Below, in pieces: positions 60,484 through 64,000 of a DNA stretch of 64,000 nt (the first letter of the stretch is position 1; every line of letters begins with the position of its first letter). The stretch is from Bdellovibrionota bacterium FG-1 (GTDB taxonomy: Bacteria > Bdellovibrionota > UBA1018). Below the pieces are notes generated by a model. It saw only the letters and a program-made list of their open reading frames with translations. It ran no database searches and had not been told where the DNA came from. A program made the translations under genes and the position numbers. The stretch lies in the NCBI GenBank assembly GCA_051382295.1, contig JBBCAW010000003.1:1-64000 (forward strand), written 5' to 3'.

Positions 60484-62625
60484 ATGGGAGACGTGCTCAA
60501 AAAATTCGGTCGGTACTTTCTGCTCGACCATATTGCCCAAGGGGGCATGGCCGAGATTTATCGTGCGCGGCTGGCTGCGGTCGATGGTGCCGGACGTTTA
60601 ATGGTGATTAAGCGTATTCAGGCGGGATTTGGGGCCAATAATGAGTTTTTGCAAATGTTCAAATCCGAAATCAAAGTCACGATGGGCTTTAATCACCCCA
60701 ATATCGTGCAACTTTATGACTTTGGCGAAGAACAAAGTCAGCCGTTTATTGCGATGGAATGGGTGGATGGTCGCAACCTTCGACAAATGATGACTCGTTT
60801 TAGCGAGCTCAAACAGCCGTTTCCGGTAGAGTTAGCGGCCTATATTGCCGAGCAAGCGGCCGCAGGGTTGTATTATGCGCATGGGTTTAAAGACAAGGTA
60901 ACCGGCGCCTCTCTCAGCATTGTTCACCGGGATATTAGTCCGCAAAACATCATTGTGAGCTACGAGGGCGGCGTTAAGGTGATCGATTTCGGGATTGCCA
61001 AAGCAAACACGAATAGTGAAGCCACCCGAGCAGGAGTCATCAAGGGTAAGCCGAGCTACCTTTCACCTGAGCAAATCAGTGGCGATATACTCGATGGGCG
61101 TTGCGATATTTTTGCGTTAGGAATCGTGCTTTGGGAAATGCTTTGTGGGCGAAAACTGTTTCAAGGCGAAAGTGATCTTGCCGTCCTCAAGCAGATTGAG
61201 AGTTGTACCCAGCACGTAAAAGCACCTTCCACTCTTAATCCTAAGGTACCTAAAGAACTCGATTATATTGTTTTGCGTGCTTTGGCTAAGCAACGGGATA
61301 AGCGCTATCAGTCTGGCGAAGAAATGCAGCGCGCGCTTCATAAATTTCTGTACAGCTATTTACCCGAGTTCAATCCGACTGATCTAGCCTATTACGCAAA
61401 GGATTTATTCAAAAACGAGATTGTCGAAGATCGGAAAAAAATTCAGCGACTCAACGACAAGGTCGAGCAGCTTCTTGCTGATGAACTTCCTGACGTCCCG
61501 GCGATTACAAAACCGGCTGAAGAGAATACCACAACCGAAGTGGAGAATGGGGTTACGCGGGCGCAAATTAGAGTACCGACTCCTATCGTCAGTCATGGCA
61601 AGGAGTCAAAAGTTGAGCTCGATGTAGGCGTGGGGTCATCGGTTTATGCGAATTCTTCGCGATCCCAGCTTAATCCTACTCATCAACGCACACTGGGCTC
61701 GACGGGCGTGAGGGCTCCACAGCAGCGACTTTCGACCAAAAAGAATGCGGCCTCTGGCTTGCTTAAACCTCTTGCGGTGGCAGCCGCCGCAGTGGTGGCG
61801 CTGGCGATTTTTGGTCCTGATTTTGGTGTTCAAGTGCCAGTTCTATCGGAGATGTTGAGCCAGTGGATGGGGGCCTCCGAGGATGCTCGTCTCGAGTTAC
61901 AAGGACATGAGCAGGGAGTGGTGGTCGCCGTCAATGGAAAGACGGTGGCAAAGAGCCTTCCGGCTGTGATCAAAAAGGTTCCCGTAGGGACGCCTTTTCG
62001 AGTTACGGTGAGCGGGCCAAATGGGGGCTTTCAACAGGAAATTACACTCAGAAAAGGTGAAAAAAGGGTATTAGAAGTCGCTTTTGCGCCACCTGCCGTA
62101 GCTGCGGCTAGTGCTGTCGGGGTAGACCCCAATCAGGTGGTTCAGGGTAAAAGTATCTTGCTTCGGCTGAATGTGACCCCGGGCGGGGGGGGGGCTTCCG
62201 TGATGCTGAATGGCCGCCCGGTGGATACCTCAAATCCAGCCGTCATTGTGGCTTTGGATGCCCCGCTGGAGTTGGTGGCCGAACGGGGCGGGTACCGCTC
62301 ATTTAAGCGCGAGTTTGTGCTCGAGGCACGGCAAGTGAACGGTTTGAAAGAATGGCTGATGGATGTGCCGATGGAGCCGGTGAGCTTCGGATTCTTAACA
62401 GTGCACAGCACTCCGAGCGCGGATGCCACTATTTTGTTGGATGGCAAACCGTGGGTGCGAAAGACTCCGATTGAGAACGAAAAATTTCCGGTGGGAACTT
62501 ATAGTATTCGCTTGAACAATGATGTGCTCGGGATGGAAAAAACGATCACCGTTCAGATTCAAGAGGGAAAAGCCGTGAATCGCGATGAACATCTCGATCT
62601 CATGCGTGAGCCCGCATCACGCTAA
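60484..62625 (+). CDS. Membrane Ser/Thr protein kinase with PEGA-like extracytoplasmic domains
   Basis: GGMAEIY, HRDISPQN, DFGIAK, YLSPEQ; TM segment; beta-rich C-terminus. Confidence 0.93.
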   Translation: MGDVLKKFGRYFLLDHIAQGGMAEIYRARLAAVDGAGRLMVIKRIQAGFGANNEFLQMFKSEIKVTMGFNHPNIVQLYDFGEEQSQPFIAMEWVDGRNLRQMMTRFSELKQPFPVELAAYIAEQAAAGLYYAHGFKDKVTGASLSIVHRDISPQNIIVSYEGGVKVIDFGIAKANTNSEATRAGVIKGKPSYLSPEQISGDILDGRCDIFALGIVLWEMLCGRKLFQGESDLAVLKQIESCTQHVKAPSTLNPKVPKELDYIVLRALAKQRDKRYQSGEEMQRALHKFLYSYLPEFNPTDLAYYAKDLFKNEIVEDRKKIQRLNDKVEQLLADELPDVPAITKPAEENTTTEVENGVTRAQIRVPTPIVSHGKESKVELDVGVGSSVYANSSRSQLNPTHQRTLGSTGVRAPQQRLSTKKNAASGLLKPLAVAAAAVVALAIFGPDFGVQVPVLSEMLSQWMGASEDARLELQGHEQGVVVAVNGKTVAKSLPAVIKKVPVGTPFRVTVSGPNGGFQQEITLRKGEKRVLEVAFAPPAVAAASAVGVDPNQVVQGKSILLRLNVTPGGGGASVMLNGRPVDTSNPAVIVALDAPLELVAERGGYRSFKREFVLEARQVNGLKEWLMDVPMEPVSFGFLTVHSTPSADATILLDGKPWVRKTPIENEKFPVGTYSIRLNNDVLGMEKTITVQIQEGKAVNRDEHLDLMREPASR

Positions 62626-62628
62626 AGA

Positions 62629-63306
62629 CTATTTCTCGTACTTATATCCCACGCCATAAATCGAAATGACGTGTCTGGTGAGGGGCGGAATCTTTCGGCG
62701 TAAAGCACGAATGTGCACATCGATCGTGCGGTCGTTGGTTTGTCCGGAGTCTTCGTGCCAGACGTCCTTGAGGATTTCTTCGCGTGAAACCACGGATCCC
62801 GCCTTGGCGGCCAAACACCGAAGAATATCGAATTCAGTCAGCGTGAGTTGGGCTTTCTTTCCGGCAAAAAGGACTTCGCGGCTGGCTGGGTCGATTTTAA
62901 GGTCACCGATTTGAATGGGCTGTGAGACGGGCTCAGCATTTTTTCGGAGGCGGGCATGAATGCGCGCCTTGAGTTCTTTGAAGTCAAAGGGCTTAGGGAT
63001 ATAGTCGTCGGCCCCTTGCGTTAATCCTTGAGTGATGTCAGGGACGCTGTTTTTAGCCGAAAGGAAAATGATCGGAATCCGTTTGGTTTTATCGTCCTTC
63101 TTTAAAAGGCTACAAGCATCATAGCCGCTTAAGATCGGAAGCATGATATCCAATAAAATCAGATCCGGGGCTTTGTTTCGTGCGTATTCAATCCCGATGA
63201 CGGCGTTTTCAGCGGTGATGATCTCGAATTCTTTGTTGAGCATCGCTTCAAGAAACCGTCGGGTATCAGCATTATCTTCGATGACGAGGATGCGAGGTTT
63301 TTCCAT
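62629..63306 (-). CDS. OmpR/PhoB family response regulator
   Basis: ILVIEDN, LLDIMLP, GADDYIPKPF, RTIDVHI, YGVGY. Confidence 0.94.
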   Translation of the reverse strand: MEKPRILVIEDNADTRRFLEAMLNKEFEIITAENAVIGIEYARNKAPDLILLDIMLPILSGYDACSLLKKDDKTKRIPIIFLSAKNSVPDITQGLTQGADDYIPKPFDFKELKARIHARLRKNAEPVSQPIQIGDLKIDPASREVLFAGKKAQLTLTEFDILRCLAAKAGSVVSREEILKDVWHEDSGQTNDRTIDVHIRALRRKIPPLTRHVISIYGVGYKYEK

Positions 63307-63351
63307 AACTTTGTAAAAAAAGTATAACACAGCTAAATTCGGTCCTCAACA

Positions 63352-63522
63352 GGGGCTCCCGGTAAAAGGTATCGGGGTCGTCCTTCCCCCTTTGCAGCAC
63401 TTCCTATGCTGCAAGTGCCCTTTTGGGCACTCGGGCTTCTCGAACAATCCTGTTCTCGAAGGGACTCCGCGCGAAGAGCGCATCCTGCGCGCGCGGATCC
63501 CCTCACTTTTACCGGGAGCCCC
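63352..63522. ncRNA. Candidate multi-hairpin structured RNA closed by a perfect 17-bp stem; GGA loops on the minus strand
   Basis: GGGGCTCCCGGTAAAAG/CTTTTACCGGGAGCCCC enclosing four hairpins. Confidence 0.55.
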
Positions 63523-63662
63523 CATGTGGGTTCGGGACCAAGAAGTCTTGAATTGATGCGTCAAGTTTCTAGCGCCTTGTTCGGTTGCTTATCTTAATTT
63601 GGGTGGGGGTGGGGCGCTGGAACAGCGTCGATTGGGTGGGGTATCTAAAATAAATAGCCACT

Positions 63663-64000
63663 TCAGGTGAAGAGTCTTCTTGCTCCCGCGAGAGCTTCGT
63701 ACAATTTATCAGACGGCATTGCTCCCAATGGTGTGAGAGTCTGAAACTCCCTTTCCGGGAGCGCGAACAGTTGATGCGTCTCTAAGATGCTGTCGTGATG
63801 AAGCCATGGGCAATCTCGCTTGGCCAGCGGAATGGAGTGGCCAAGGACCAAGGAAACAGGCTTGCCATTCTGATGGTTGCGACTTCGAATGATTGCGACC
63901 ATGACAAATAGATCATTCGCCGCACCTTGGGGTGGGGCCGACAAGACTACGCAGCGATGCGTGTTTTGCGAATGGGGCGGAAGAATCGTTTTCGGAAAGT
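63663..64000 (-). CDS. PemK/MazF-like protein, 5' end outside the window
   Basis: Frame open to the window edge: FPKTILPPHSQNTHRCVVLS..LFVMVAIIRS..WLHHDSILETHQLFAL..LGAMPSDKL, PemK-like spacing. Confidence 0.55.
   Translation of the reverse strand, partial: FPKTILPPHSQNTHRCVVLSAPPQGAANDLFVMVAIIRSRNHQNGKPVSLVLGHSIPLAKRDCPWLHHDSILETHQLFALPEREFQTLTPLGAMPSDKLYEALAGARRLFT

What the first reader, a model, noticed from the sequence alone, without database searches (positions are those of the whole stretch)
63341..63540. Compact multi-hairpin RNA with GGA loops: CsrB/RsmZ-like sponge candidate
A perfect 17-bp stem (63352-68/63506-22) encloses four hairpins. Read on the minus strand, three display GGA in the loop (gcgCAGGAUGcgc, gaaCAGGAUUguuc, gcaUAGGAAGugc) and about five more GGA occur nearby. 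CAGGAUG hairpin loops are the established CsrA/RsmA-binding signature. A long closing stem is not typical of CsrB, and I know of no such RNA described for this lineage. It ends ~45 nt upstream of an OmpR regulator, so a CsrA-controlled leader is an alternative. Strand is uncertain: a TTGTAA-17-TAAATT promoter (63311-39) points into it on the + strand. A MITE is also possible.
Basis: partly seen in the sequence, partly recalled or inferred. Interest (0 to 1): 0.7.

Follow-up and report, generated by a model that had tools for sequence, protein, structure and literature searches.

The report
Dispersed GGA-hairpin repeat, expanded copy
The hairpin is real, but it is one enlarged copy of a repeat scattered about fifty times through this bacterium's genome; its loops look like docking sites for the regulator CsrA, as in the known but untested TwoAYGGAY RNA motif, so it is not a single new sponge gene.

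Summary
The structure is confirmed: 17-bp stem, z about -8, three GGA loops on the minus strand. It is not a single CsrB-type gene or a leader of the OmpR-type regulator. It is one of 41 intact copies of a dispersed intergenic repeat, with about 10 copies of a sister subfamily. The usual copy is a long stem carrying two A(N)GGAN hairpins. GGA is kept in 37 and 36 of 38 loops while the N positions vary. This copy carries a 74-nt cassette that adds two GGA hairpins. Relatives occur in 25 of 115 other genomes of the order; one scores 42 bits against Rfam TwoAYGGAY, cut-off 43. The host has csrA beside fliW, and 4 of 6 flagellin leaders carry the same hairpin against 2.9% of all genes. No target-site duplication, conserved terminal repeat or mobiliser was found. 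Transcription and binding are untested. Verdict: a new-lineage variant of the TwoAYGGAY-type repeat, probably CsrA-binding. The scan noted similar repeats in at least 14 other genomes.

The parts
63352..63530 (-). Whole repeat copy (long form of subfamily A), from the 5' CCCAC motif to the end of the basal stem
   Evidence: Model R1, built from 38 other short copies, hits 63348-63533 at 100.9 bits, the only hit in the window
63526..63539 (-). 5' CCCAC motif preceded by degenerate hexamers
   Evidence: CCCAC precedes the stem in 32 of 41 copies; upstream flanks printed
63506..63522 (-). Basal stem, 5' arm (17 nt)
   Evidence: an arm of this type (14 or more of 17 identical) in 19 of 41 copies
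63495..63504 (-). Conserved core, 5' side: GA of a possible tandem G.A pair, then the four-G helix
   Evidence: tandem GA is inferred from opposed conserved GA columns
63478..63490 (-). Hairpin H1, loop C-AGGAU-G (CsrB-repeat type)
   Evidence: GGA kept in 37 of 38 short copies
63389..63462 (-). 74-nt cassette in place of the two-base start of the H2 loop
   Evidence: A contig of the short form skips exactly these 74 nt with 2 letters between; alignment of 8 cassette-bearing copies
63442..63455 (-). Cassette hairpin 1, GGA loop
   Evidence: its GGA is invariant in 8 of 8 aligned copies
63415..63430 (-). Cassette hairpin 2, AAAA loop, no GGA
63394..63412 (-). Cassette hairpin 3, GGA loop
   Evidence: GGA in 5 of 7 copies that have this hairpin, ACGAN in the two subfamily-B copies
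63372..63388 (-). Remainder of hairpin H2 (its GGAN and 3' stem side) and conserved core, 3' side
63352..63368 (-). Basal stem, 3' arm (17 nt)
63321..63349 (-). Predicted sigma-70 promoter of the neighbouring regulator gene; starts 2 nt after the element; host feature
   Evidence: consensus match only
62629..63306 (-). OmpR/PhoB-type response regulator gene; neighbour, not part of the element
   Evidence: Pfam Response_reg + Trans_reg_C; orthologues in 5 relatives lack the element upstream

Best explanation
The stretch is an enlarged copy of a dispersed, TwoAYGGAY-type structured repeat of this Bdellovibrionota lineage. SHOWN: about 50 intergenic copies; a long basal stem with A(N)GGAN hairpins on one defined strand; patchy presence across the order; a cassette that raises the number of GGA hairpins from two to three in this copy. 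INFERRED: the GGA strand folds as single-stranded RNA when transcribed, mostly by read-through, and its hairpins bind the host CsrA dimer as the flagellin leaders probably do. The family would then act as a distributed CsrA sink beside the FliW protein antagonist, or would use CsrA to protect its own RNA. INFERRED, weaker: copies spread as non-autonomous elements by an unidentified enzyme, and the stem arms are perfected or extended by template switching. My odds: dispersed TwoAYGGAY-type repeat 0.9; loops bind CsrA 0.65; a real effect on host CsrA activity 0.3.
For: Copy number: 46 blastn loci, 41 intact A/C copies, 10 B copies plus 3 fragments. Loop pattern: GGA in 37 and 36 of 38 loops, with the base after GGA and the N before it free; this fits the CsrB repeat CAGGA(U/A/C)G and the SELEX consensus (PMC7652899, passages). 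The H2 stem swaps pairs while the loop stays (15 of 37 two-sided changes at one pair; 21 of 36 pairs covary). Strand: G.U 23 against A.C 5 in basal stems. In 28 loci from 25 relatives, 26 have at least one ANGGAN hairpin on the model strand and 2 on the other. Host: csrA-fliW operon; ANGGAN hairpins in 4 of 6 flagellin leaders against 90 of 3096 genes; the family holds 69 of the 146 such hairpins that lie in the family or outside ORFs. TwoAYGGAY link: the 4 weak RF01731 matches in this genome are all subfamily-B copies on the GGA strand; a relative's copy scores 42 of 43 bits. It shares the divergent doublets (3 here), 5'-side tandem repeats (11 of 41 against 0 of 41 on the 3' side, background 4.5%) and extra-hairpin variants reported for Pseudomonas (bioRxiv 10.64898/2026.09.22.753630, section 8).
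Against: No expression or binding data exist for it here. No promoter enrichment 5' of the copies (2 of 38 against 5%), and only 2 of 21 same-strand upstream genes end within 35 nt, so many copies may be silent. csrA is in 108 and fliW in 111 of 116 genomes while the model finds the element in 26, so co-occurrence says nothing and the host does not need the element. A loop variant ACGAN recurs in 2 copies here and 3 relatives. Stem covariation can arise by template switching without selection (PMC5941160, abstract). The relatives were found with a model trained on GGA loops, which biases that count. Copies are related, so the p-values overstate. With an over-permissive stem extension the G.U/A.C asymmetry vanished (71 against 75). 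The focal copy has no RF01731 match at E up to 10.
Confidence: 0.6

Rival explanations
1. A non-autonomous mobile element (REP/REPIN- or MITE-like) whose conserved core and GGA loops are the recognition marks of an unknown mobilising protein acting on single-stranded DNA or RNA. The match to CsrA sites is coincidence.
For: About 50 dispersed copies; present or absent at orthologous sites; divergent doublets; sharp polarity, with the 3' end within 14 nt of a convergent stop codon in 14 of 21 cases; the cassette sits in a GGA loop in two different subfamilies; 10 RAYT-like Y1 gene matches in the genome.
Against: No target-site duplication (mean longest direct repeat 3.46 against null 3.47). Arms vary (32 distinct of 41). 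The RAYT-like family does not track the element (17 of 25 carriers against 50 of 90 others; my tally), and by eye no copy flanks the 9 Y1 genes printed. Wobble falls where CsrA tolerates it, and flagellin leaders use the same hairpin.
Confidence: 0.2
2. A mostly neutral palindrome kept perfect by template switching, whose only job is on the other strand, as a terminator or 3'-end shield for the gene it follows.
For: 14 of 21 convergent copies start at the neighbour's stop codon; arms are copy-specific and in relatives extend into host sequence; template switching corrects inverted repeats (PMC5941160, abstract).
Against: Explains neither the conserved unpaired GGA with free N positions, nor its retention in stems of unrelated sequence across four families, nor G.U over A.C on the GGA strand. 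The focal copy follows no stop codon.
Confidence: 0.12
3. A dedicated CsrB/RsmZ-like sRNA gene at this locus, with its own promoter and terminator.
For: Three well-formed GGA loops, one of them the CsrB repeat type; csrA present.
Against: Multi-copy family; no Rfam match at E up to 10 apart from a chance lncRNA hit; no terminator-like site after it and no promoter before it; not found at the orthologous locus in 5 of 5 relatives; fliW present.
Confidence: 0.04
4. A CsrA-controlled 5' leader of the OmpR-type regulator.
For: Same strand, 45 nt from the ATG; read-through from further upstream cannot be excluded.
Against: The predicted -35 begins 2 nt after the stem, so the element is upstream of the promoter. 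The orthologous genes lack it. The other copies neighbour unrelated genes, 21 convergent and 19 same-strand.
Confidence: 0.04

Closest known systems
TwoAYGGAY RNA motif (Rfam RF01731, clan CL00106); Weinberg 2010 PMC2864571 (one table passage seen), Gardner and Eldai PMC4333381 (passages), bioRxiv 10.64898/2026.09.22.753630 (abstract, section 8, passages; supplements not seen)
   Same: Two GGA-loop hairpins on a long basal stem; possible tandem GA; tens of intergenic copies; divergent doublets; 5'-side short repeats; variants with extra GGA hairpins; Csr/Rsm binding proposed, untested.
   Different: Below the Rfam cut-off here (best 27 bits, focal copy none). Loops mostly 5-nt AGGAN or A[AG]GGAN, not AYGGAY. 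H1 sits on a longer arm with an internal loop. Bdellovibrionota is not mentioned in the preprint's main text. The host has fliW. The cassette is inserted in a loop. No pseudoknot was tested.
CsrB/CsrC, RsmX/Y/Z sponge sRNAs (PMC7652899, passages)
   Same: Several CAGGANG-type hairpin loops; could bind CsrA in the same way.
   Different: Those are few-copy sRNA genes of Gammaproteobacteria that depend on BarA-UvrY, with up to about 18 repeats. This is a dispersed repeat with 2-4 loops inside a long closing stem, in a fliW lineage.
REP/REPIN and MITE elements (definitions recalled, no call)
   Same: Short, palindromic, intergenic, dispersed, lineage-specific, often just behind stop codons.
   Different: No target-site duplication; ends variable and core conserved; no link to the genome's RAYT-like genes; strand-specific structure.

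Membership tests
TwoAYGGAY (RF01731) | Score at or above the gathering cut-off of 43 bits | tested here: not met
   Focal copy no hit; best in genome 27 bits, subfamily B; a model-R1 relative 42 bits; 2 of 116 genomes of the order have some match over the cut-off
TwoAYGGAY (RF01731) | Two hairpins from a common basal stem | tested here: met
   Structure counted on 38 short copies: 90.9% cells paired, 21 of 36 pairs covary; focal copy has extra hairpins
TwoAYGGAY (RF01731) | AYGGAY in both terminal loops | tested here: inconclusive
   Exact AUGGAU in H1 of 5 of 41 copies, in subfamily B and many relatives; most copies and the focal one have AGGAN or ANGGAN
TwoAYGGAY (RF01731) | Multi-copy, divergent doublets, 5' short repeats (Pseudomonas form) | tested here: met
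   41 copies, 3 divergent doublets; tandem arrays 11 of 41 on the 5' side, 0 of 41 on the 3' side
CsrB/RsmZ sponge sRNAs | Several GGA motifs in hairpin loops | tested here: met
   3 loops, unpaired probability 0.98-1.0
CsrB/RsmZ sponge sRNAs | Rfam match to a Csr/Rsm sRNA family | tested here: not met
CsrB/RsmZ sponge sRNAs | Independent gene with own promoter and intrinsic terminator | tested here: not met
   Consensus scans only: none at this copy, no enrichment over 38 copies
CsrB/RsmZ sponge sRNAs | Control by BarA-UvrY/GacS-GacA | not tested
   Not searched; fliW, anti-correlated with BarA-UvrY (PMC7652899), is present
CsrB/RsmZ sponge sRNAs | Expressed and binds CsrA | not testable with these tools
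   No RNA holder listed
MITE | Conserved terminal inverted repeats | tested here: not met
   32 distinct 5' arms among 41 copies
MITE | Target-site duplication | tested here: not met
   No excess of direct repeats; no close strain with an empty site was available
REP/REPIN with RAYT | Repeats flank and co-occur with a RAYT gene | tested here: not met
   Flanks of 9 Y1 genes read by eye; co-occurrence 17 of 25 against 50 of 90
CsrA-controlled 5' leader | Lies between the promoter and start codon and is kept with the gene | tested here: not met
   the start site is predicted, not mapped

The most novel reading that the evidence does not exclude
A mobile, modular CsrA sponge: the repeat spreads through a fliW-bearing predator lineage, builds its outer stem by copying neighbouring host DNA in reverse, raises its valency by inserting a GGA-hairpin cassette into its own GGA loops, and through copy number sets free CsrA. 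That would be a case of FliW and sponge RNAs working in one cell, which a review calls undetermined (PMC7652899, passage).
Probability: 0.22. Interest if true: 0.75.

Novelty: new variant of a known kind. Interest (0 to 1): 0.44.

Why it matters
TwoAYGGAY-type repeats are widespread and unexplained. This family extends them to Bdellovibrionota, where CsrA is paired with FliW; my searches found no CsrA sponge RNA or such repeat described there. It gives ready test material: natural two-loop and three-loop forms, loop-variant copies, and the host's own flagellin leaders as a positive control. If CsrA binding holds, it bears on whether FliW and RNA antagonists coexist and on whether mobile repeats can tune a global regulator by copy number. 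If it fails, the 3'-end polarity and the loop-targeted cassette still point to an unknown way of spreading. The single locus is ordinary within its family.

Tried and rejected
Rfam scan of 62500-64000: one chance hit. Sequencing runs: no RNA holder listed, which is no evidence on expression; laying three DNA runs gave only short pieces and no empty site. Exact 20-nt core pattern in metagenome contigs: 8 hits, all judged chance matches in GC-rich coding-like DNA; viral contigs 0; genome contigs 1. csrA and fliW co-occurrence: uninformative, nearly universal. RAYT-like Y1 family as mobiliser: no association. Two reverse-transcriptase genes exist; no link seen, not followed up. A first target-duplication test had wrong element ends for about a quarter of the copies and was redone. 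A first stem count over-extended into flanks. Downstream promoter consensus in 4 of 41 and 3 of 38 copies against about 3% background: too weak, so 'promoter-sized gap' is inference. Inverted copying of flanks beyond the stem in this genome: not found (14.1 against null 14.6). An apparent orthologous copy between G084 and C21 did not align. RNAalifold gave an alternative core pairing of invariant columns; I kept the per-sequence fold, supported by one compensatory change. Paper searches returned nothing relevant.

Full report
OBSERVATION. The sequence is as described. The arms 63352-63368 and 63506-63522 are a perfect 17-bp inverted repeat. The 200-nt stretch folds far better than shuffles on both strands (z -8.5 and -8.3), so energy does not choose the strand. 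Three hairpin loops on the minus strand display GGA with unpaired probability 0.98-1.0; a fourth has AAAA; six more GGA lie nearby, three of them buried. Rfam gives nothing at E up to 10 except a chance lncRNA hit.

IT IS A REPEAT. Blastn against the 4.44-Mb genome gave 46 loci. Anchored parsing gave 42 copies of subfamilies A and C; one with an internal deletion was dropped, leaving 41: 38 short and 3 long, the focal copy among the long. Two short copies at contig ends are identical and may be one locus (37 distinct rows of 38). A sister subfamily B has 10 recognisable copies (8 complete, 1 at a contig end, 1 half) and 3 fragments. A model built from the 38 short copies finds the focal copy at 100.9 bits and nothing else in the window. 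The only exact genome-collection match to the core motif was titled Bdellovibrionota; I use that for the phylum only.

ANATOMY. On the GGA strand a short copy reads: CCCAC (32 of 41), a basal stem of about 17-20 bp, opposed GA dinucleotides, a four-G helix, an arm ending in hairpin H1, hairpin H2, and the closing strands. In 38 copies GGA is kept in 37 H1 and 36 H2 loops; the base after GGA varies in both, and the N before GGA varies in H2. With my structure 90.9% of cells pair and 21 of 36 pairs have two-sided changes, above all 500 shuffles and all slid controls (related copies inflate this). The H2 stem changes pairs while the loop stays. Basal-stem mismatches are G.U 23 to A.C 5 on the GGA strand (23 to 4; no asymmetry when the stem was wrongly extended into flanks). 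This picks the minus strand for the focal copy. The focal copy differs by a 74-nt cassette (63389-63462) that replaces the first two bases of the H2 loop. The same cassette sits in the same kind of position, in an AUGGAU loop, in subfamily B, whose stem is otherwise unlike A. In the two full B-long copies the cassette's last loop reads ACGAN instead of AGGAN.

CONTEXT. With a crude ORF caller (ORFs of 390 nt or more; 40 of 41 copies had a 3' neighbour, 37 a 5' neighbour) there is no orientation bias (21 convergent, 19 same-strand) but a strong polarity. The 3' end lies within 14 nt of the convergent gene's stop in 14 of 21 cases, while only 2 of 21 upstream genes stop within 35 nt of the 5' end. 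It lies within 100 nt of a same-strand start in 12 of 19 cases against 1 of 16 on the 5' side. The 5' side carries tandem arrays in 11 of 41 copies, the 3' side in none (background 4.5%). Three A-C pairs form divergent doublets with a shared spacer. There is no excess of direct repeats or of promoters 5' of the copies. The focal copy ends 2 nt before the predicted -35 of the response regulator. None of 5 relatives has it before the orthologous gene, and in G005 that gene follows an HD-domain gene directly, where this genome has about 3.3 kb of extra DNA. So it is an insertion beside a promoter, not a leader.

RELATIVES. Model R1 hits 25 of 115 other genomes of the order, in four families; this is a lower bound, as only 32 candidates per genome were scored. 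In the 28 loci returned, stems are unrelated in sequence, but 26 keep at least one ANGGAN hairpin on the model strand against 2 on the other strand; the model was trained on such loops, so this is partly circular. One G022 copy sits in an intergenic gap that is empty in this genome. In relatives the arms are often copy-specific and long. In 3 loci (G036, G046, G026) the 5' side holds an inverted copy of the 3' end of the tRNA gene that abuts the 3' side, and a fourth (G105) reaches its last bases. Host DNA has therefore been copied in reverse around the element, which template switching could explain (PMC5941160, abstract only). In this genome no such copying beyond the stem was detected, and 0 of 41 copies are within 250 nt of a tRNA.

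THE HOST REGULATOR. csrA is single and lies in a flgL-csrA-fliW operon. By my count its protein has K7, S11, I25 and E45, among the residues named as predictive for flagellin-repressing CsrAs, but V at 47, not L; Bdellovibrio bacteriovorus CsrA represses a flagellin leader (PMC13443453, passages). Four of 6 flagellin leaders here have an ANGGAN hairpin, against 90 of 3096 genes, with loops like those of H2. The repeat family holds 69 such hairpins; 77 others lie outside ORFs. csrA and fliW are in 108 and 111 of 116 genomes, so presence alone proves nothing.

HOW IT MOST LIKELY WORKS. Shown: dispersed, strand-specific, loop-conserved, lineage-patchy. Inferred: when the GGA strand is transcribed, its hairpins bind CsrA. 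Whether that drains CsrA for the host or shields the element's RNA is open; I give binding 0.65 and a host-level effect 0.3. Spreading is inferred from copy number and empty orthologous sites. No mobiliser was identified: the RAYT-like Y1 family is in 17 of 25 carriers and 50 of 90 others (my tally). The 3' polarity is unexplained; it may reflect a precise junction, or loss of dispensable DNA on one side only.

COMPARISON. It works like TwoAYGGAY: two GGA hairpins on a basal stem (PMC2864571, table passage; PMC4333381, passages), multi-copy, with doublets, 5' repeats and extra-hairpin variants (bioRxiv 10.64898/2026.09.22.753630; supplements not seen, and they may list further lineages). It is not a member by score: focal copy no hit, subfamily B 24-27 bits, one relative 42 of 43, two other genomes of the order over the cut-off. 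It fails the defining tests for CsrB/RsmZ genes, MITEs and REPINs that I could run (definitions of the last two recalled). I reached the TwoAYGGAY reading before consulting earlier scan notes, which report similar repeats in at least 14 genomes; they are not independent evidence.

VERDICT. Real feature; new variant of a known kind; interest 0.44. The boldest reading left open, a mobile and modular CsrA sponge alongside FliW, has probability about 0.22.

Noticed in passing
G000:C3:64000-66600, just beyond the window end: About 3.3 kb between the HD-domain gene and the response regulator holds ORFs that look like two toxin-antitoxin pairs (one GNAT-type) and a broken HTH gene; in G005 the two host genes are adjacent. 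Labels are by eye, no family search.
   Followed up: partly
G000:C3:125068-125252, C13:14457-14664, C7, C10 and others: A second abundant repeat family: tandem palindromes with a period near 51 bp (REP/BIME-like), lying 5' of two of the GGA elements.
   Followed up: no
G000:C33:68623-69228 and 9 more matches: A divergent RAYT-like Y1 (HUH) family of about 200 aa, 10 matches here, found in 68 of 116 genomes of the order, up to 19 per genome; no flanking REP pairs seen by eye.
   Followed up: partly
G000:C75:8852, C52:79193, C143:6833 (minus strand): Three similar structured intergenic sequences, each with one long hairpin bearing an A(N)GGA loop; a separate family, not identified.
   Followed up: no
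G000:C22:72209-73403, C5:62241-63402, C30:16939-17236, C89, C12, C62 and others: A repeated unit of 300-450 nt with a strong ribosome-binding site and a short ORF start, tandem in places, containing ANGGAN hairpins; possibly a type I toxin-antitoxin-like or leader-peptide cassette.
   Followed up: no
L081 (G036), L082 (G046), L091 (G026), L076 (G105): The element faces a tRNA 3' end, and an inverted copy of that tRNA end lies on the element's other side.
   Followed up: partly
G000:C123:23575-26110: Three tandem flagellin genes whose leaders carry one or two clear ANGGAN hairpins each, likely CsrA target sites.
   Followed up: yes
G000:C141:167-847 and C122:41-364: Two reverse-transcriptase domains at contig ends; type not determined.
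   Followed up: no
G000:C89:1-5600: Four damaged copies of the repeat (two B with a shortened cassette, one A fragment, one A long) are interspersed with phage- or defence-like ORFs.
   Followed up: partly
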